Source of the DNA: a virus
Lineage: Duplodnaviria > Heunggongvirae > Uroviricota > Caudoviricetes
DNA: 16,008 nucleotides
IMG/VR virus record: IMGVR_UViG_2675903413_000007
Location: 1 to 16,008 of that record
Strand: one strand, 5' to 3'
The position numbers and the translations under genes were made by a program. The notes under the pieces were generated by a model. The model was not told the DNA's origin. It worked only from the letters and a program-made list of their open reading frames with translations, and made no database searches. Numbering within the stretch: position 1 is the stretch's first letter; every line of letters starts with the position of its first letter. Below are positions 1,532-10,679 of this stretch, one piece after another.

Positions 1532-1741
1532 TTAATTTGAATACAATGCAATTCTCGAGGACTGAAGTTTCTCGCAATTAAAATTTATCAGTTTTACTTT
1601 CTGCTCTCTGGAAACGCCTGCTTCTTTTTTACCTGAGAGCATTTTTTCGCATTCTGATTTCGTTAGTTTAGATTTTGAATATCTTGTCCAGTTAGTAGGA
1701 GTGCCACCTTCCTTTTCAATAGTGGCGGTAATTTTATACAT
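1532..1741 (-). CDS. ydaC: Rac prophage small protein YdaC-like (DUF1187), 69 aa
   Basis: ORF MYKITATIEKEGGTPTNWTRYSKSKLTKSECEKMLSGKK... in the conserved Rac order between xisR and ralR. Start taken at the internal ATG (1741) that overlaps the ralR stop by 8 nt; the track ORF extends to 1813. Confidence 0.65.
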   Translation of the reverse strand: MYKITATIEKEGGTPTNWTRYSKSKLTKSECEKMLSGKKEAGVSREQKVKLINFNCEKLQSSRIALYSN

Positions 1742-1984: not shown

Positions 1985-2794
1985 TTATTCCTCTGAATTA
2001 TCGATTACACTGTATTCCCCGGTTAATACAGAGGAATCTGCAGGATCGATTGTCAGTGGTTCCTTTTCATCCATTGATACTGCACGCTGGATCTCAATTG
2101 ATACGGGCAGATATTTGAACAGGCGACGAATAGCCGTTTTCTTTGCCATTTCTTCCCAGTGAGTTACCCACGGCCCGTTATTACCAGCTTTACTCAGGCT
2201 GCGCACCAGCTCAATCTGTTTGCGCGTCATAACTTCAAACTGAGTACCTCCGTCTTTCAGTCTTGCGACAGCATAGACGTGGGTAACCGGGGCATCTTCG
2301 TTTTCTCCCGGGCGGTGTATTAACTTTTCATCAAGGCCAAATTCGAAGCTAAACTCGTCACCTTCACGGACAACACGGGCTGACAGGCTGGCGATTTGAC
2401 CAGAACGGCGAGCCAGATCAATCATGCCGCGATAGCCAATGATTAGCTGAACGTTCTTTTTACCGCTCTTTTCGTTTTTATTACCAAAAGGCAGTAAATA
2501 TGCATGACCGAGGGCGCTACCTGGCTCAAGTCCGAGCTGTGAACACTGTACGATCGCACTGACAAAACTCATAGTGTCACAGTTTCCTAACGCCGGAACT
2601 TTACGAATTTCTGTGGTGGCGATACGGATCATACGTTCAGCCGTCATATGGCGTGGAAGAGCTGCTGCCAGTTGCTCTTTCATTGATGGCTGGTTAATAA
2701 AACTAATCACGTCGCTATTTTTAACTGCTGCTGGTGCACGGTTTCCCTGAGTTTTTTGCAGATCGGCTTTTGCGATTGGTGGTTGCTTAGTCAT
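1985..2794 (-). CDS. recT: Recombinase RecT (single-strand annealing protein), 269 aa
   Basis: Translation from [21 protein letters not shown]... to ...[10 protein letters not shown] matches E. coli Rac RecT over its full length as recalled. Start at 2794 overlaps the upstream recE stop, as in K-12. Confidence 0.95.
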
Positions 2795-3479
2795 TTGCAT
2801 ATTCCTTAGCCCAGCGGGGCAGTGATAATGTCTTAATAGCTGGCCATTCATCGGTATTCAGGCAGTCAGACAGGGTTCGCAGATTGCGGTGATATTCCTG
2901 TTGACCTGCCAGTTTTGCTTCTTCGCCCATCATGAAAATTTCAACCGGATAACGTCCGCATTCAATAGTTGTGCTGGCAACCAGAAAAACGAAAGTTGGC
3001 TGCACTCCAAACTGTGCTTCATAACCGTCACTGTAGAATGCATCCTGAACGTGATAGCGGTAGTCGTAATAAGCGGTTTTGAATCGTTGAATATCCGCCG
3101 TAGTTTTCACGTCCATGATCCAGTGAAATTCAGGGATAATTTTGTCCGGACGGCACCGACACAAAATTCCTGTTTCAGGATCTTCCCAGTAAATTGATGA
3201 TTCAGCGTGTCCGGCGCTTTCAACAAGCCATTGCCCCAGCGGCAAAGCCATAACGCTTTGATACATGAGTTCAATTTTCCGGCCTTCTTCCGCAGTGATA
3301 ACCGTTTTTCCTGTGCTTGCGCATTCCATCAGAAACGCTTTCTCTTCTTCTTTTCCGGCGTTTGTACGGCGGTTAAATTCAGGTGCTACGATAAAGCGGT
3401 TACTGAATTCTTCCGGTTCAAGTACGGGAAGATGCTCCAGAGTGGCTTCGCTCTTTATTTTTTGTAACTGTCCTCGATA
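2787..3479 (-). pseudogene. recE: 5'-truncated recE (exonuclease VIII) remnant: C-terminal ~230 codons only, no start codon
   Basis: The minus-strand frame is open from the stop at 3512-3510 down to 2787 and translates to ...[54 protein letters not shown]...[15 protein letters not shown], which matches the RecE C-terminal nuclease domain. Full RecE is ~866 aa. The homology and GC-rich composition stop near 3480, where the AT-rich island begins. The only in-frame Met is at 3329. Confidence 0.85.
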
Positions 3480-3484
3480 ATTTT

Positions 3485-4264
3485 TTGTACATTGATGGTG
3501 ATAGCCGCATTACGAATGATGAGAACAAGCCGTTGGGTATTAAGGCTTTGATCGAGCGACTTTGCGCAGAGAATGGTCAAGAAACAGATCATGAGGATTT
3601 CGATTCATGGTACTGCTATGATGCTTTGAAAGCGCGTTTGCAACATATGCGTTGGTTTCAATTTTATGATGCTGTTGAGATTATCGGAGATCTATTAAGA
3701 AAAAGAGATGTAGAAAGAGGCCATACTTGGGGTAAGAAGGCATTAGAAGACATTACTTTTACATCATATCGTCAGAAATTGAACGAGTTATTCGCATCTC
3801 GAAATATTGACTGGAAAATGAATTCTGCTGGTAGGTTAGAAACACCACTACCAAATGAATTAGAACAAAAAATCGATGAAACTAACAACTTATTGCAAGA
3901 CCAGTTTGAACCTGCAAGGAGGCACTATGTGAAAGCCCGGGCTTTTGCATTAGGTGCGCATAAGGATCCAGAAAATTCCATAAAAGAATCAATAAGTGCA
4001 ATAGAAAGCATGTGTCGGACTTATTATCCTTCAGCCTCAACCTTGGGCGATGTATTAAAACTGATGAGAAAAGAAAACACTATCTCACCTATGCTTTTAA
4101 CGGTGATAGAGAAATTTTACGCTTATACAAATGCAGAGCCAGCAGTAAGACATGGTAGCAACAAGGTTTCTTCTGTCTTGGAATACGATGCTGAATTCGT
4201 GTTGCATATATCAGCAGCATTTATTAGAACAATAATACAAAGAAAAGCTGTTTTGGATAACTAA
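3485..4264 (+). CDS. Hypothetical protein, 259 aa as drawn; start uncertain (TTG, no RBS); possible Abi/HEPN-like C-terminal module
   Basis: Long AT-rich ORF beginning exactly at the recE junction. The first codon is TTG with no Shine-Dalgarno, and the frame is open upstream to 3407 inside the recE remnant, so the native N-terminus may be lost. Predicted helical protein; the C-terminal segment ...[31 protein letters not shown]... loosely resembles abortive-infection C-terminal (HEPN-type) modules. The similarity is weak and unverified. Confidence 0.5.
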
Positions 4265-4504: not shown

Positions 4505-5731
4505 TTAAAATATATATTTTATATCAACCCAATTTTTAGCATTATTGTCAACTAAAGTAACGCTATGTCCATGACTTGAATTTATAGCATCGATTACTGA
4601 TTGTGATGGGTGTCCATGTGAATGACCATCCGACTGAGCTATAAACAAAACATTATCAAAATCCGCAATTATTTTTTGATTGAAATTTAATTCCGAACCA
4701 TGATGAGGTAATGTCATCACCCTTACCGTTTTAATCACTTTTGAATAGAATTCAGCCCATTTATTATAATACAATGATGTATTAAGCTTTGAGTCACCTG
4801 TTAATAAAACAGATCTAATTCCTTTATCTCTATCAAAGAGAAAATGTCGCTCAACCCGACTATTTCTAAAACTAAACCACTCACGAGAAGGCTCATTAAC
4901 AATTTTCATCTCAGCTTCTTGATTATTAATAATCAAGAGATTGATTGATATTACATTATGATCGCCAGCAAGTTTTAAATAACACTCGCGTAATTTCTTT
5001 CTTTCCCCCGTGCTAGTTAATATTTTAAGCATTTTTTTCTTACTTAACTCAGTAAAACCATTTTCTATTAACTGCTGACTGAAAATTTCAATTTTCTTAC
5101 GTGAACGGGGCGGTATCCAAGAAATAAATGACATTAGTGTATCAGTTTTGTTTTCCCCAATCCTTTTAACCAACCAACGGTTACATTCAACATCTCCTTT
5201 GGAGTCAGATATTTTCATTGGTAAGCTTACAGCGCTACCCTTAATGTTTTCACTATTAAATATAGGAGGGTCAAAATTATCATCAATATCACTGGGGTAA
5301 AGCAAAGATATATCTGCCTCAGGCAACCTTGATTTTATCCATTTGACAGGATCAATGAGAAATTCCATAAAAAGACCTGACGTAGAATTAGAGCATAGCT
5401 CCGATGCAATTAAGTAATAGCTATCATGGATATCTAGGTATGGTAATACAACCTTGCGTATTTTGTTATCTACAAGCTGACATAAATGGTCAAATCCATT
5501 TATATGGTCTGAATCCAAATGAGAGATGTATACCACATCAATATATTTCTCATCAATATTAAAGAGAGATTTAGCCACATCCATCTCCCTACGCAACGCA
5601 TTTAATTGGTCACTTCCGCAGTCATACACATAACTGTAAAGCAAACTACCATCCCTTCCCCTCAGTCCGCCTAAACTAAATCCACCCTGGCCAACGGGAA
5701 ACAATCTTTTATGAAATACTTCTCCGCTCAT
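4505..5731 (-). CDS. Standalone ComEC/Rec2-type metallo-beta-lactamase-fold hydrolase (predicted nuclease), 408 aa
   Basis: ATG at 5731 is preceded by AAGAAGGA about 7 nt upstream. Ordered MBL motifs are visible: FPVGQGGFSL near the N-terminus, YDCGSD, ISHLDSDHINGF (HxDxDH variant, as in ComEC ISHADQDH), LPHHGSELN (ComEC HHGS motif) and SDGHSHGHPS (C-terminal GHP). A ~250-aa insertion lies between motif 2 and the HHGS motif. There are no transmembrane competence-channel segments. Very AT-rich. Confidence 0.75.
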   Translation of the reverse strand: MSGEVFHKRLFPVGQGGFSLGGLRGRDGSLLYSYVYDCGSDQLNALRREMDVAKSLFNIDEKYIDVVYISHLDSDHINGFDHLCQLVDNKIRKVVLPYLDIHDSYYLIASELCSNSTSGLFMEFLIDPVKWIKSRLPEADISLLYPSDIDDNFDPPIFNSENIKGSAVSLPMKISDSKGDVECNRWLVKRIGENKTDTLMSFISWIPPRSRKKIEIFSQQLIENGFTELSKKKMLKILTSTGERKKLRECYLKLAGDHNVISINLLIINNQEAEMKIVNEPSREWFSFRNSRVERHFLFDRDKGIRSVLLTGDSKLNTSLYYNKWAEFYSKVIKTVRVMTLPHHGSELNFNQKIIADFDNVLFIAQSDGHSHGHPSQSVIDAINSSHGHSVTLVDNNAKNWVDIKYIF

Positions 5732-6445
5732 ATATCCTTCTTACACCCTAACGTGATCATAAAATTGTCTTAAAGTTAAGTTTAAAGCTAAAAAGTCACA
5801 GCTCATTCCAACTCGTGAGCAATAGGAATGTATATTCAATCAGTTAGAGGATCAACCCGATTTTCTCTAATGAGATTTCGCAACGCAGTACGAACAGCAG
5901 CTACTTCTGCCATCTCATTAACAACCACACTGGACTACAATCCCCTAAGTTCTACAGACTGTAACCATATCCTCTTCACAGAAATAATCTGATTAATGCT
6001 GAAGGTCATCTTTCTCGACGCGAATGTATGACATAACAACCTCAGTTAATTATCTTTCGATAGAAAAATACCTTCACAAAAGGTTTAAGCAACCCATCAC
6101 AAGACAACACGCTAAGCTTGCCTTGTAAGCGTCCTGCTTAACCGAACAGTTCGCTTTCAGAGGATCTCCGGAGAACAGCTCCGATGCCTTATAAGGCCAA
6201 TGCTCGCTCCTCGCTCACTGCGGACCTAAGGTTTGGTCAGCTTGTTCGCACTCTGCCAAAAGCGGGAGTTACTCCCATTCGGTGTTAATCAATGTAGAGC
6301 AGATCAATCAACGACAAAGAAAATGAGAGGCATATCACTACTCATATGAAAATTATTGTAGTAAAGTGAGCCGTAAGTTCATCATTTATAAATCATATAG
6401 CATATATGTTATATCAATTTTAATTTAAATGGCAGAATAATTACC

Positions 6446-7150
6446 ATGGAAAAAATTAAAGCTCCTTGTCCATATTGTAAAGGTGAAAAAAATTGCCACA
6501 TAATAGGCCATAAAAAAAGAGAATGGAGTGAGGATGATGGGGGCAACTATTTTTGGGCTGAAAGTGAATACAAATTATTAGAGTGTATGGGGTGCGACGG
6601 AATATTTACATATATTAAATCCCGTCACAGTGAAGATTACGACATTGAAAGAGATGAGTCAGGCTATGATTGTATGGTATATAACTATCATATATCAACA
6701 TATCCCACTCAAGAGCAAGAAGAGATTAGACCAACTTGGTTTGGTGAGATATTAAACAAAGATCGTCAGCTGTATGTAATAATGAACGAAATGTACATCG
6801 CATTTCAAAATAAATCATTCATTTTAGCGGCGATTGGACTTAGAACTATTTTTGACAGAACAGTTGAGGTTCTAAATATTCATCCAGGATATACATTAGG
6901 CCAGAAGGTTGACATTCTTAAAGAGGAAGGTTTTATTGGGGAAACAGAAAGGAGCCAACTTAAAATTGTAACCGAAGCTGGCAACTCAGCTGCACACAGG
7001 ACATGGGCACCGAACGAAACTGAATTTAAATCGCTTTTGGTAATTATAGAAAATTTTGTAATGCGAACAATACTAAAAAATGAGGATATATTTAAGATTA
7101 CAGAAAAATTACCTGCGAAATATCCAAGACCTCCCAAAAAGCAAGAATAA
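6446..7150 (+). CDS. Zn-ribbon + DUF4145-like (HEPN-superfamily) protein, 234 aa
   Basis: The N-terminus has CPYC...(35 aa)...CMGC, a CxxC-CxxC zinc ribbon. The C-terminal ~100 aa contain AAIGLRTIFDRTVEVL and the motif TEAGNSAAHRTW, which matches the conserved GNxAAH signature of DUF4145 domains as I recall it. AT-rich; divergent from the MBL gene. Confidence 0.7.
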   Translation: MEKIKAPCPYCKGEKNCHIIGHKKREWSEDDGGNYFWAESEYKLLECMGCDGIFTYIKSRHSEDYDIERDESGYDCMVYNYHISTYPTQEQEEIRPTWFGEILNKDRQLYVIMNEMYIAFQNKSFILAAIGLRTIFDRTVEVLNIHPGYTLGQKVDILKEEGFIGETERSQLKIVTEAGNSAAHRTWAPNETEFKSLLVIIENFVMRTILKNEDIFKITEKLPAKYPRPPKKQE

Positions 7151-7559
7151 TGTACGTAAGTGTAAATAGAGCTAAGAGATTATATATTGACTCTGGTTAT
7201 CTCTATTAGCACATGCTTTTTGTAATGCCTTAACTGATTATTTAAACTCCTGTCAGCTTTTCGCTCAAAGCGGACTAAAGTGTTGGCTTGTGACTGACTT
7301 AGCGCATTTAAGGAAGTGGTGGTGGTGACGGGGTGTTGTGTCCCATTTCCACAGAATAAATCAGAGAAACTATAGCGGCTGTAATGGCAATCTATGGTCT
7401 TGCTATTGCTCTTATGGATCACCTTTCTGATTGATTTCATATTGGCGAGGTAACGGGAGTTAAGTAGAATAGCTGCGGGTGCTTGAGGCTGTCTGCCTCG
7501 GGCATGAACACCAAAGGCAGATAGAGAAAAGCCCCAGTTAACATTACGCGTCCGGCAAG

Positions 7560-7640
7560 ACGCTTAACATTAATCTGAGGCCACATCTATGCTTTGCATA
7601 CGTAGATTAGCCTCTTACCGACCAAAAGGTCAAGGAGAAG
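7560..7640 (-). ncRNA. sok: Expected Sok-type antisense RNA opposite the mok/hok leader (position approximate)
   Basis: Inferred from hok-family locus architecture only; no promoter or terminator for it was pinned down in the sequence. Confidence 0.25.
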
Positions 7641-7837
7641 CAGGCTATGAAGCAGCAAAAGGCGATGTTAATCACCCTGATCGTCATCTGTTTAACCGTT
7701 ATAGTGACGGTACTGGTAACGAGGAAAGACCTCTGCGAGGTACGAATCCGAACCGACCAGACGGAGGTCGCTGTCTTCACAGCTTACGAACTTGGGGAGT
7801 AAGAGGACCAGCGGGGAGAAATCCCCGCAACCTCTGA
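7589..7837 (+). CDS. mok: Mok-type overlapping reading frame (modulator of killing) of the hok locus
   Basis: An 82-codon ORF in a different frame that starts upstream of hok and fully overlaps it, which is the canonical mok arrangement. Confidence 0.5.
   Translation: MLCIRRLASYRPKGQGEAGYEAAKGDVNHPDRHLFNRYSDGTGNEERPLRGTNPNRPDGGRCLHSLRTWGVRGPAGRNPRNL
7647..7802 (+). CDS. hokD: Hok-family type I toxin (HokD/RelF-like membrane peptide), 51 aa
   Basis: ATG at 7647 with AAGGAGA about 10 nt upstream. Translation MKQQKAMLITLIVICLTVIVTVLVTRKDLCEVRIRTDQTEVAVFTAYELGE is near-identical to E. coli HokD/RelF and Gef/HokC as recalled. It has a single transmembrane helix and the conserved Cys. Confidence 0.9.
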   Translation: MKQQKAMLITLIVICLTVIVTVLVTRKDLCEVRIRTDQTEVAVFTAYELGE

Positions 7838-10147: not shown

Positions 10148-10679
10148 GGGCTGGTTTATTGTATGCCAAATGATTATTAAAAAGGTTGTGTTAATAACAA
10201 AATCCGAAATAATATGCCTGCATATTTTTATCTTGCTTATATTCTGCATATTGTGCATAGCAGGCTCATCCCTGCAATCAAAACTGTATGATGAGTATTT
10301 TTTGTTTTCCTTTTTTCCAGTCATCTGATGATGACCTGCTTCTTTTTAATCCGGATCGACATCAGTTTTTTAAGATAATTCCTGCGAGTTATATGCATAA
10401 ATACCACAAACTCCGCATTTTATGTGGTTGGGAGTTGCCGGGCGCGCAGTGAGTTTGCTAAGAAAACTCCTGCATGGTGAATCCCCCTGTGCGGTGGGGT
10501 GATACCATTAACCTTTTCTGTCGCCGACAGGTATCACGAACATTTTGTTCACCGGGAGGCACCCGGCACCATGCACTTCAATAGATTCTCTCCACATTAT
10601 GGATATTCTTTCAGAATATCCCACGCAGACTTTGTGTAAATGTTAACAAATGTGCGTTTTATTTGATCTGATTCGCTGT

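What the first reader, a model, noticed from the sequence alone, without database searches (positions are those of the whole stretch)
5732..6445. 700-bp non-coding spacer with GC-richer core and repeated motifs between the divergent island genes
There is no ORF of 60 or more codons here despite 714 bp. The core (about 6100-6300) is noticeably GC-richer than the flanking AT-rich genes and contains paired near-repeats: tGCCTTgTAAGcg and tGCCTTaTAAGgc, the second a perfect CCTTATAAGG palindrome; GAACAGtTCGC and GAACAGcTCCG; and the CTCCGGAG palindrome. This looks like operator sites for a regulator, a structured non-coding RNA, or the relic of a decayed gene. Some defence systems rely on a non-coding RNA component, so it deserves a check.
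Basis: seen in the sequence. Interest (0 to 1): 0.45.

Follow-up and report, generated by a model that had tools for sequence, protein, structure and literature searches.

The report
Recombination-site junction between prophage defence cassettes
The "non-coding spacer" is a dead 65-codon gene, a promoter region and, at its GC-rich core, a back-to-back pair of DNA recombination sites of the kind that mark where defence-gene cassettes are swapped between prophages; it is not a structured RNA.

Summary
It has three parts.

(1) 5836-6034 (minus strand) is a pseudogene of a 65-aa ORF that is intact upstream of other effector genes in other E. coli.

(2) 6124-6267, the GC-rich core, is a conserved non-coding element. 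It has an 80-nt extension with a sharp TGTAAG edge, then two 24-bp sites:
- A: GTCCGCTYY-TCGCTC-WWAGCGGAC
- B: GTCCGCTYT-GTGCCA-RRAGCGGAC

(3) 6268-6445 is the upstream region of the DUF4145 cassette.

A and B recur in at least 1908 of 5426 E. coli genomes, never annotated. They alternate in one orientation around cargo genes, many of them anti-phage, in Rac/Qin, e14 and P2 hotspots, Klebsiella phage-plasmids and Pantoea plasmids. P2 fun(Z) and K-12 flxA are flanked the same way. Homology between contexts breaks within a few bases of the site centres. A 200-aa tyrosine recombinase gene sits between an A centre and a B centre in 16 contexts. No Rfam match, consensus fold or covariation supports an RNA.

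Best reading: a junction of tyrosine-recombinase-type core sites. The sites probably match the P2 inverted repeats of Nilsson 2004. The recombinase link is inferred.

The parts
4505..5731 (-). MBL-fold hydrolase gene (408 aa), cargo of the left-hand cassette. Its C-terminal part resembles LmuA/Avs1a-type defence proteins.
   Evidence: ORF. Pfam Lactamase_B 2e-5. PADLOC LmuA 2.4e-12 and Avs1a 2.7e-6. NCBIfam Avs1a 1e-7.
5836..6034 (-). Pseudogene of a 65-aa small ORF. It has a stop at codon 14 and a 1-nt insertion. The ORF is intact directly upstream of other effector genes in E. coli S42 and Nissle 1917.
   Evidence: blastn 81% and 72% identity to annotated 198-nt CDSs. Translations and alignment. 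Coordinates.
6035..6123 (-). Upstream region of the small-ORF/effector operon, shared at about 81% with S42 up to the TGTAAG edge. Presumed promoter region; no consensus promoter was found.
   Evidence: Alignment A8. S42 sequence. Promoter scan negative on the minus strand.
6124..6201 (+). 'Long-form' 80-nt extension that always abuts site A. It has a sharp 5' edge at TGTAAG (6124-6129), an imperfect palindrome, and ends in ..TAAGGCCAAT. Role unknown.
   Evidence: 13 distinct copies, 81% mean column identity, flanks unrelated. nhmmer hit 6124-6202.
6202..6225 (+). Site A: GCTCGCTCC-TCGCTC-ACTGCGGAC (consensus GTCCGCTYY-TCGCTC-WWAGCGGAC), centre 6211-6216. It forms the right end of the MBL cassette.
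   Evidence: nhmmer. Site lists. Breakpoints at A centres in other contexts.
6226..6243 (+). 18-nt A-to-B interval (an 'empty' module). In other loci the same position holds a 200-aa tyrosine recombinase gene.
   Evidence: A>B gaps of 6-17 nt or about 660 nt. Recombinase module bounded by the A and B centres.
6244..6267 (+). Site B: GTTCGCACT-CTGCCA-AAAGCGGGA (consensus GTCCGCTYT-GTGCCA-RRAGCGGAC), centre 6253-6258. It forms the left end of the DUF4145 cassette.
   Evidence: nhmmer. Homology with the EC11 cassette starts at 6254.
6268..6445 (+). Upstream and leader region belonging to the DUF4145 cassette. It travels with the gene.
   Evidence: 89% identity to the region upstream of the DUF4145 gene in an e14-like prophage of strain EC11.
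6446..7150 (+). DUF4145 gene (234 aa), cargo of the right-hand cassette.
   Evidence: ORF. Pfam DUF4145 3e-11. Annotated full length in S40 and EC11.
7252..7275 (+). Solo site A (GTCAGCTTT-TCGCTC-AAAGCGGAC), right end of the DUF4145 cassette, next to sok/hokD.
   Evidence: Motif search. Homology with EC11 ends right after this site.

Best explanation
The GC-rich core (6124-6267) is a DNA element, not an RNA gene. It is the junction between two gene cassettes in the variable hotspot of a Rac-type prophage.

It contains two 24-bp sites, A and B. Each has 7-9-bp inverted arms (GTCCGCT / AGCGGAC) around a different asymmetric centre: TCGCTC in A and GTGCCA in B. That is the layout of a tyrosine-recombinase core site.

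Across islands the sites alternate A, B, A, B in one orientation. Cargo (here the small-ORF pseudogene plus the MBL gene on one side, and DUF4145 on the other) lies in the B-to-A intervals. The A-to-B interval is either about 18 nt, as here, or holds a 200-aa tyrosine recombinase gene.

Proposed mechanism: recombination between like sites (A with A, B with B) on different replicons swaps the module between them. This resembles recombinase-mediated cassette exchange between two heterospecific sites, and the pdif modules of Acinetobacter plasmids.

Shown: the sites, their order and orientation, the position of homology breakpoints at or within a few bases of the site centres, and the recombinase gene lying exactly between an A centre and a B centre.

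Inferred: that this recombinase is the enzyme, that exchange is conservative site-specific recombination, and that the window copy (several arm mismatches, no recombinase gene seen in the window) is still usable. The role of the 80-nt TGTAAG extension is unknown.

The rest of the spacer is a dead 65-codon gene with its upstream region (5836-6123) and the DUF4145 cassette's own upstream region (6268-6445).
For: (1) Conservation without coding or folding. There are 13 distinct copies of the core in unrelated contexts (E. coli islands, Klebsiella phage-plasmids, Phytobacter, Serratia, metagenomes), with 81% column identity and unrelated flanks. Stops occur in all frames and there are 1-nt and 3-nt indels. 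No consensus structure appears.

(2) Spread. The generic A-spacer-B unit is in 1908 of 5426 complete E. coli genomes, with 1-7 copies each; every one of the 40 sampled rows lies in unannotated DNA.

(3) Order. Of 74 non-redundant neighbouring site pairs, 73 are on the same strand and 61 alternate A/B. A>B gaps are 6-17 nt or about 660 nt; B>A gaps are 0.1-5.7 kb. Per-locus maps show that four hotspots start with B and end with A: Qin/Rac DUF977-hokD, P2 G-FI, e14 after pin, and a chromosomal island.

(4) Breakpoints.
- The DUF4145 cassette is shared by the window (Rac) and EC11 (e14). Its homology runs from the centre of B to the 3' arm of A.
- The recombinase module in 16 contexts is conserved from TCGCTCA to ..CCCTGTGCCA, while the outer arms differ in each context.
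- At the K-12 Qin B site, K-12 shares its left side with plasmid pET5 and its right side with strain 127. The switch lies inside GTGCCAGGAGC.

(5) Arms do not co-vary. Positions 4 and 21 pair in only 29 of 56 A sites, which fits double-stranded half-sites rather than a selected hairpin.

(6) The recombinase. It has a Phage_integrase domain and Xer/invertase-like NCBIfam hits. Alignment to XerD conserves H-x-x-R, H and Y. Among the 23 full-length homologues of at least 83% identity with both flanks in the contig, a site at the expected position (A ending 35 nt before the ATG, or B starting 21-24 nt after the stop) was detected in 15, and both in 10. Direct reading shows an A-like sequence at that position in all 16 distinct upstream contexts, some degenerate. 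Homologues of 59-63% identity keep CGGCCAGAAGC after the stop. The gene is in 848 of 5426 E. coli genomes. The family is 77-95% identical across many gammaproteobacterial genera.

(7) Cargo includes known or candidate defence genes: PD-T7-1 at 9e-157 and PDC-S32 at 1e-31, plus an anti-phage dGTPase.

(8) Phage P2 fun(Z) is flanked by B and A. A review credits Nilsson et al. 2004 with inverted repeats flanking fun that enable site-specific exchange (PMC8987985).
Against: No experiment or read-level evidence (circles, inversions) was available.

The recombinase-site link is by position only. Most genomes with sites lack the recombinase gene: 848 genomes carry the gene against at least 1908 with sites. 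No such gene was seen in the window.

The window's own sites carry 2-3 mismatches per arm, and centre B reads CTGCCA rather than GTGCCA.

The island's left border in S40 and RM9513 has no B site next to the DUF977 gene.

Twelve of 74 neighbouring pairs are of the same type.

The sharp TGTAAG edge implies a further junction type that the model does not explain.

Breakpoints are resolved only to about 6-11 nt and from a limited number of comparisons. Short-homology recombination by phage RecET/Red at these conserved 24-mers could give similar mosaics.

The Nilsson 2004 paper could not be read, so identity with its repeats rests on the P2 sequence and on a review sentence.
Confidence: 0.65

Rival explanations
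1. The A/B sequences are only short conserved 'linker' homologies. Cassettes are exchanged by general or phage-encoded homologous recombination (RecA, RecET of Rac, lambda Red). The 200-aa recombinase is just another piece of cargo.
For: The window prophage encodes RecT and a RecE remnant. The sites are 24-40 bp of conserved sequence, enough for Red/RecET-type recombination (established knowledge). Most site-bearing genomes lack the small recombinase gene.
Against: Breakpoints fall in or beside the 6-nt centres in every case examined. 73 of 74 neighbouring sites share a strand and 61 alternate A/B, which homologous recombination does not require. The site layout (inverted arms around an asymmetric centre) and the recombinase gene framed by the two centres in 16 contexts would be coincidences.
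Confidence: 0.15
2. The core is a selfish miniature repeat (MITE/REP-like) or a bidirectional terminator/insulator hairpin that travels with morons. It has no role in cassette exchange.
For: It is multi-copy, with up to 8 copies in 10 kb of a Pantoea plasmid. It has palindromic 7-bp arms. It sits in intergenic DNA, often just after stop codons. The ends TGTTAGCAATG.. / ..CATTGCTAACA look like terminal inverted repeats in some copies.
Against: No T-run and no terminator call. In P2 the annotated V-operon terminator lies elsewhere than the B site. Orientation follows the island, not the neighbouring gene. Solo B and solo A sit at island borders, rather than whole units with target duplications. 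The arms do not co-vary to keep a hairpin.
Confidence: 0.1
3. The core holds operator or regulatory sites for the two divergent genes, or a promoter for the minus-strand operon.
For: It lies between divergent genes, and the palindromes could bind a dimeric regulator. The small-ORF/MBL operon must have a promoter somewhere in 6035-6270, and none is obvious.
Against: The same element occurs next to unrelated genes in every orientation, including between convergent genes. The DUF4145 gene keeps only 6254-6445 when it moves. No regulator gene is associated with it.
Confidence: 0.06
4. The core encodes a structured non-coding RNA used by a defence system (retron-like, type III antitoxin-like or another sRNA).
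For: It is a conserved non-coding sequence inside a defence island. A weak single-sequence fold signal appears on the minus strand (z = -1.86).
Against: No Rfam hit. RNAalifold gives -1.97 and -1.66 kcal/mol, and none of the 8 plus-strand pairs is compensated. No reverse transcriptase, no tandem repeats, no conserved promoter or terminator. Conservation is of primary sequence, with a sharp DNA-type edge.
Confidence: 0.03

Closest known systems
Inverted repeats flanking fun(Z) and other lysogenic-conversion genes in P2-like coliphages (Nilsson, Karlsson & Haggard-Ljungquist 2004, Mol Biol Evol 21:1; known to me only through PMC8987985 and its title)
   Same: In the P2 sequence, fun(Z) is flanked by a B site (P2 15334-15361) and an A site (17433-17460) of the same sequence family as the window's sites. 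The review says these repeats enable site-specific exchange of fun between phages and bacteria.
   Different: The window copy is in a Rac-type lambdoid prophage, not a P2-like phage. It is a back-to-back A-18 nt-B junction with an extra 80-nt TGTAAG extension. I could not check which repeats that paper defined, or whether it named a recombinase.
pdif modules of Acinetobacter plasmids (XerC/XerD sites in alternating orientation around accessory-gene modules)
   Same: Short recombinase core sites alternate as inverted versions of each other and delimit exchangeable accessory modules. Mosaics break at the sites.
   Different: The sequence is unrelated to dif (11-6-11). Two heterospecific centres are present here. 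A dedicated 200-aa recombinase gene lies between sites, rather than reliance on host XerCD. The hosts are prophages and enterobacterial plasmids.
Integron attC sites and cassette arrays
   Same: Arrays of small cargo genes, including defence genes, are separated by conserved imperfect palindromes of 60-150 nt. The putative enzyme is a tyrosine recombinase. Solo or hybrid sites occur at array ends.
   Different: There is no RYYYAAC...GTTRRRY polarity (the element reads GTTAGC...GCTAAC). Sequence rather than hairpin structure is conserved. Cargo lies on both strands. There is no IntI, attI or Pc platform. The crossover appears to be in two different centres.
FimB/FimE-type tyrosine DNA invertases
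   Same: The recombinase is about 200 aa, with no obvious separate N-terminal domain. NCBIfam gives weak hits to the invertase families (2e-6).
   Different: Those hits are far below the family cut-offs. No invertible promoter segment was shown here, and the sites differ.

Membership tests
P2 Z/fun-type inverted-repeat cassette sites (Nilsson 2004) | The same repeat sequences flank fun(Z) in phage P2. | tested here: met
   nhmmer finds B at L147 835-862 (E 2e-7) and A at 2934-2961 (E 7e-5) on either side of fun(Z). Whether these are the published repeats could not be read.
P2 Z/fun-type inverted-repeat cassette sites (Nilsson 2004) | The repeats flank exchangeable cargo, and homology between hosts ends at the repeats. 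| tested here: met
   DUF4145 cassette, window vs EC11. flxA cassette, K-12 vs strain 127 vs plasmid pET5.
Tyrosine-recombinase core site | Inverted binding arms around a short asymmetric centre where the strands are exchanged. | tested here: met
   Consensus from 56+56 sites: 7-bp arms GTCCGCT/AGCGGAC, centres TCGCTC and GTGCCA. Breakpoints at or within a few bases of the centres.
Tyrosine-recombinase core site | A cognate recombinase binds and cleaves the site. | not testable with these tools
   Positional association only. Catalytic H-x-x-R, H and Y are conserved in the alignment to XerD.
Integron attC | R'' RYYYAAC at the 5' end and R' GTTRRRY at the 3' end; structure conserved rather than sequence; IntI nearby. 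| tested here: not met
   The ends read (T)GTTAGC...GCTAAC(A), which is the reverse polarity. Sequence is conserved while arm pairing is not. The best integron-integrase hit is E 0.0017 at 17.6 bits, against a 435-bit cut-off.
Rfam RNA families, including retron msr and type III antitoxins | A covariance-model match, or conserved base pairing with compensatory change. | tested here: not met
   No hit at E up to 10 in the spacer or in the Pantoea array. RNAalifold about -2 kcal/mol, no compensated pair among those listed.
REP/BIME or MITE | Many dispersed copies per chromosome; whole-unit insertions with target-site duplication; hairpin maintained. | tested here: inconclusive
   1-7 copies per E. 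coli genome, all in accessory islands. Solo half-units at island borders. No duplication seen at the window copy. No empty-site/filled-site pair was examined.
Intrinsic terminator | GC-rich stem followed by a T-run. | tested here: not met
   0 terminator-like sites in 5650-6520. The P2 V-operon terminator is annotated 280 bp away from the B site.
pdif (XerC/XerD) sites | An 11-6-11 dif-like sequence bound by host XerCD. | tested here: not met
   The site sequences bear no resemblance to dif (from memory: GGTGCGCATAA-TGTATA-TTATGTTAAAT). The alternating arrangement is shared.

The most novel reading that the evidence does not exclude
A and B are the substrates of a very widespread, so far uncharacterised 200-aa tyrosine recombinase. 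Its gene lies between an A centre and a B centre. Together they would form a natural two-site cassette-exchange system that shuffles anti-phage and other accessory genes among P2-like, lambdoid (Rac/Qin), e14-like prophages, phage-plasmids, plasmids and chromosomal islands across Gammaproteobacteria. That would be the missing mechanism for rapid gene turnover at prophage defence hotspots. The window core would be a recombinase-less junction of that system.
Probability: 0.4. Interest if true: 0.85.

Novelty: new member of a known kind. Interest (0 to 1): 0.6.

Why it matters
Prophage 'hotspots' are a main reservoir of anti-phage systems. A key paper on them states that the mechanism driving gene exchange at these loci is unknown (PMC9122126).

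The flagged core belongs to a site family that delimits cargo in several unrelated hotspots, including the textbook cases P2 fun(Z) and K-12 Qin flxA/relBE. A candidate enzyme is encoded exactly between the sites. That gives a directly testable model: recombinase plus A/B substrates.

It also gives a practical annotation rule. A and B sites mark cassette borders, which helps to delimit new defence genes and to recognise mis-annotations. For example, the K-12 ydfV ORF overlies a B site.

For the window itself the result is sobering. There is no hidden RNA gene, and one third of the 'spacer' is a dead gene.

Tried and rejected
- **Rfam** at gathering and at E up to 10 on the window, the spacer and a Pantoea array: nothing in the spacer.
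- **tRNA/tmRNA scan**: none.
- **Single-strand folds**: weak z-scores.
- **RNAalifold on 13 copies, both strands**: no structure.
- **Promoter/terminator scan**: two weak plus-strand promoter-like hits, no more than in shuffles; no terminator.
- **Repeat finder**: only chance-level short repeats.
- **Coding potential of the core**: stops in all frames and frame-breaking indels. Small spacer ORFs have no Pfam match.
- **attC reading**: GCTTAAC fits RYYYAAC, but the overall polarity is reversed and Serratia and Klebsiella copies break it.
- **IS66-type inverted repeat (GTAAGCG) or MITE with terminal repeats**: a lead from memory only. No matching second end within 5 kb and no target duplication.
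- **IS200/IS605-like two-hairpin element and omega-RNA idea**: no TnpA/TnpB nearby, and the orientation of the sharp edge does not fit.
- **Partial blast matches first read as mosaic modules** turned out to be IS3 and IS1 insertions at about 6165 and 6074.
- **Exact-pattern scans**: 10 of 12 genome hits and most metagenome hits were chance matches, filtered out with nhmmer.
- **Literature**: sequence strings not found. Keyword searches found no description of the sites or the recombinase beyond the Nilsson 2004 citation. Nilsson 2004 and Odegrip 2006 are not held.
Full report
**Setting.** The window is a Rac-type lambdoid prophage of E. coli. It carries an integrase ORF at 1-1236, the RalA RNA at 1557-1735, recT, a recE remnant, sok/hokD at about 7477-7652, and lysis genes followed by trkG. 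The spacer 5732-6445 lies between a minus-strand MBL-fold gene (4505-5731) and a plus-strand DUF4145 gene (6446-7150). In strains S40 and RM9513 the same island sits in the variable region between the replication-side DUF977 gene and hokD. There it also carries an anti-phage dGTPase and a PDC-S32 candidate defence gene. In the window a deletion joins the recE remnant to the truncated PDC-S32 gene at about 3422.

**The observation.** It is accurate as a description:
- The spacer has no ORF of 60 or more codons.
- GC rises to 0.515 in 6100-6299, against 0.285-0.435 in the other 200-nt windows across the spacer.

The motifs carry no statistical weight, though. The repeat finder does not list them. 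Near-identical 11-mer pairs are no commoner than in dinucleotide shuffles: 2 observed against 2.9 +/- 2.0.

**The spacer is mosaic.** The whole 714 bp occurs at 99.7% identity or more in only 8 complete E. coli genomes. Shorter matches are due to IS3 and IS1 insertions at about 6165 and 6074. Three segments have separate histories.

*Segment 1, 5831-6123.* This stretch is 81% identical to DNA in strain S42 and 72% identical to DNA in about 100 genomes, including Nissle 1917. In those genomes it is annotated as a 198-nt CDS on the minus strand. The window copy (6034 down to 5836) has a stop at codon 14 and a 1-nt insertion, so it is a pseudogene. The intact 65-aa ORF has no Pfam or PADLOC match. 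It sits directly upstream of different effector genes: a GIY-YIG/T5orf172 nuclease in S42, and a 441-aa protein just after LmuB in Nissle.

*Segment 2, 6254-6443.* This stretch is 89% identical to the region upstream of a DUF4145 gene in an e14-like prophage of strain EC11. It belongs to that gene.

*Segment 3, the GC-rich core.* This is the interesting part and is described next.

**The core is a conserved non-coding element.** blastn, pattern scans and nhmmer recovered 13 distinct copies of the same roughly 105-150-nt sequence in unrelated surroundings:
- next to a 1589-aa DEAD/DEAH helicase gene in about 125 E. coli genomes;
- between convergent genes in 66 Klebsiella phage-plasmids;
- in Phytobacter, Serratia and metagenome contigs.

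Mean column identity is 81%. The flanks are unrelated, and the 5' edge is sharp at TGTAAG (window 6124). Every frame has stops, and copies differ by 1-nt and 3-nt indels.

It is not a structured RNA by any test available:
- no Rfam match;
- fold z-scores of -1.2 and -1.9;
- RNAalifold energies of -1.97 and -1.66 kcal/mol on the two strands, with none of the 8 plus-strand pairs compensated.

**The 3' half is a widespread unit.** The 3' half of the core is one copy of a much more widespread unit:
- site A: GTCCGCTYY-TCGCTC-WWAGCGGAC;
- a 17-19-nt spacer;
- site B: GTCCGCTYT-GTGCCA-RRAGCGGAC.

A consensus 80-mer finds it in 1908 of 5426 complete E. coli genomes, with 1-7 copies each; all 40 sampled rows lie in unannotated DNA. 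In a Pantoea ananatis plasmid it follows almost every small accessory gene (GNAT, NUDIX, ASCH, RelE/HigA): 8 copies in 10 kb.

In the window, A is 6202-6225, the spacer is 6226-6243 and B is 6244-6267. A further solo A lies at 7252-7275, after the DUF4145 gene.

**Arrangement.** Within a locus the sites share one orientation, whatever the strand of the cargo genes, and they alternate. Of 74 non-redundant neighbouring pairs:
- 73 are on the same strand;
- 61 alternate A/B;
- A-to-B gaps are 6-17 nt or about 660 nt;
- B-to-A gaps are 0.1-5.7 kb.

Four different hotspots begin with a solo B and end with a solo A, with A-spacer-B at internal junctions:
- Qin/Rac, between DUF977 and hokD;
- P2, between the tail-fibre assembly and tail-sheath genes;
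- e14, after pin;
- a chromosomal island.

Cargo includes PD-T7-1 at 9e-157 and other defence candidates.

Phage P2 itself has B and A on either side of fun(Z). K-12 Qin has B (inside the annotated ydfV ORF), then flxA, then A.

**Breakpoints.** Where the same module occurs in different contexts, homology stops at or within a few bases of the site centres.
- *DUF4145 cassette, window vs EC11.* Homology starts inside the centre of B and ends after A.
- *A-to-B interval.* A 46-nt interval is identical in three islands, while the outer arms differ.
- *K-12 Qin B site.* K-12 matches plasmid pET5 to the left and strain 127 to the right, switching inside GTGCCAGGAGC. At the A site, K-12 and strain 127 diverge right after ..AGCGGAC.

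The arms do not co-vary to preserve pairing: positions 4 and 21 pair in only 29 of 56 A sites. The sites therefore look like double-stranded protein-binding half-sites rather than selected hairpins.

**A candidate enzyme.** In two islands a 706-bp segment, 94% identical between them, carries a 200-aa protein with only a Phage_integrase domain. The segment is bounded by an A centre on the left and a B centre on the right.

Sixty-eight IMG/VR loci encode relatives.
- Among the 23 full-length homologues of at least 83% identity with both flanks in the contig, the site models find an A ending 35 nt before the ATG or a B starting 21-24 nt after the stop in 15, and both in 10.
- Direct reading shows an A-like sequence at that position in all 16 distinct upstream contexts, some degenerate.
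- Across those contexts the conserved block runs exactly from TCGCTCA to ..CCCTGTGCCA, and the outer arms vary.
- Homologues of 59-63% identity from GC-rich hosts keep CGGCCAGAAGC after the stop. The motif recurs elsewhere in those loci.

The protein scores far below every NCBIfam family cut-off. Its best similarities are to Xer recombinases and FimB/E-type invertases. Its alignment with XerD conserves H-x-x-R, H and the catalytic Y. The gene is present in 848 of 5426 E. coli genomes. The family is 77-95% identical across Escherichia, Proteus, Providencia, Pantoea, Erwinia, Idiomarina, Pseudoalteromonas and others, which implies frequent horizontal spread.

**Interpretation.** The core of the flagged spacer is the junction between two cassettes. 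On one side is [dead small ORF + MBL-fold gene], ending in the 80-nt extension and site A. On the other is [DUF4145], beginning at site B. An 'empty' 18-nt interval lies where other islands carry the recombinase gene.

The most economical mechanism is conservative site-specific recombination between like sites on different replicons. That would exchange the module between two heterospecific, mutually inverted sites.
- Works like: recombinase-mediated cassette exchange and Acinetobacter pdif modules.
- Not a member of: integron attC sites. The end polarity is reversed and no IntI is present.

This part is inference. Nothing here shows binding or catalysis. Short-homology recombination by RecET/Red remains a rival.

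[quoted passage not shown] 2004. The P2 sequence shows that those flanks are A and B, so the site family has very probably been seen before. I could not read that paper. I found no description of the recombinase, of the A/B alternation, or of its spread to lambdoid, e14, phage-plasmid and plasmid hotspots. Rousset et al. 2022 say the mechanism of exchange at P2/P4 hotspots is unknown.

**Unexplained.**
- The 80-nt TGTAAG extension: its sharp edge implies another junction type, and it contains a left-arm-like TCCCGCT.
- The missing B at the DUF977 border of this island.
- The 12 same-type neighbouring pairs.
- The promoter of the minus-strand operon.

**Verdict.**
- The RNA reading is rejected.
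- The 'decayed gene' reading is right for a different stretch.
- The core is a member of a recombination-site family at a defence-cassette junction. It is ordinary as an individual locus, but it leads to a testable and possibly new cassette-exchange system.

Noticed in passing
window 5836-6034 (-); L148 4006-4203; L149 4006-4203: A 65-aa ORF family (MSYIRVEKDGLQYEAEYF...RTALRNLIRENQVDPLTD) with no Pfam or PADLOC match sits directly upstream of diverse effector genes: MBL in the window, a GIY-YIG/T5orf172 nuclease in S42, and a 441-aa protein just after LmuB of a Lamassu-type system in Nissle 1917. It is a pseudogene in the window. It may be a small regulator or partner protein.
   Followed up: partly
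L145 (K-12 MG1655 NC_000913.3) 5980-6010 and 6974-7000: In the Qin prophage, flxA is a B..A cassette next to relBE. The B site lies inside the annotated ydfV ORF, which is split at exactly this point in other strains ('ydfV' fragments are annotated on both sides), so ydfV may not be a real gene.
   Followed up: partly
window ~3422; 2787-3329 and 3485-4264: Relative to S40 and RM9513, the window prophage has a large deletion that joins a recE remnant (DUF3799) to a 5'-truncated PDC-S32/AbiJ-NTD4-like gene. The regulatory and replication genes between recE and the island (as seen in S40), the dGTPase gene and a B site are lost.
   Followed up: partly
window ~6074 and ~6165 (other strains: L003, L002): IS1 (three frog isolates) and IS3 (two strains) are inserted in or beside the core in other genomes. 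In three of them the insertion is accompanied by deletion of neighbouring prophage DNA.
   Followed up: partly
window 6446-6672: PGAP starts the DUF4145 gene at 6673 in RM9513 and ET490 but at 6446 in S40 and EC11. The longer form adds an N-terminal CPYC...CMGC zinc-ribbon-like segment and is conserved in EC11, so the long form is probably right.
   Followed up: partly
window 4505-5731: The MBL-fold protein matches defence models only in its C-terminal ~100 residues (PADLOC LmuA 2e-12, RTasMBL, Avs1a). It may be a stand-alone effector derived from a Lamassu/AVAST-type module.
   Followed up: no
L073 8014-8052 and all close homologues: The start codon and ribosome-binding region of the 200-aa recombinase lie inside a conserved 12-bp hairpin (ACTCAAATCTCC..GGAGATTTGAGT). 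This suggests translational control similar to that of some IS transposases.
   Followed up: no
L098, L099, L102, L121 (IMG/VR contigs from GC-rich hosts): Distant recombinase homologues (59-63% identity) are followed by CGGCCAGAAGC(G/A/T)G. The same motif, usually just after a hairpin, recurs 2-4 times per 10 kb on both strands, so a diverged version of the site system may exist outside Enterobacterales.
   Followed up: partly
L014 2400-8900 (Pantoea ananatis plasmid NZ_CP020945.2): An array that looks like integron cassettes: 8 A/B sites separate GNAT, NUDIX, ASCH, metallophosphoesterase, DUF6886 and RelE/HigA genes. No integron integrase was seen in the 10 kb fetched.
   Followed up: partly
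window 1557-1735, 7477-7652, 10442-10628: Rfam gathering-level matches to RalA (antitoxin of RalR), sok (hokD antisense) and STnc100. These are ordinary features of Rac-type prophages.
   Followed up: no
L006 3758-3851 and L005 6240-6316: Second, degenerate copies of the TGTAAG extension lie about 1.2 kb from the main copy. In Klebsiella phage-plasmids the copy is inverted and flanks the NYN gene. In the E. coli helicase island it is direct.
   Followed up: partly
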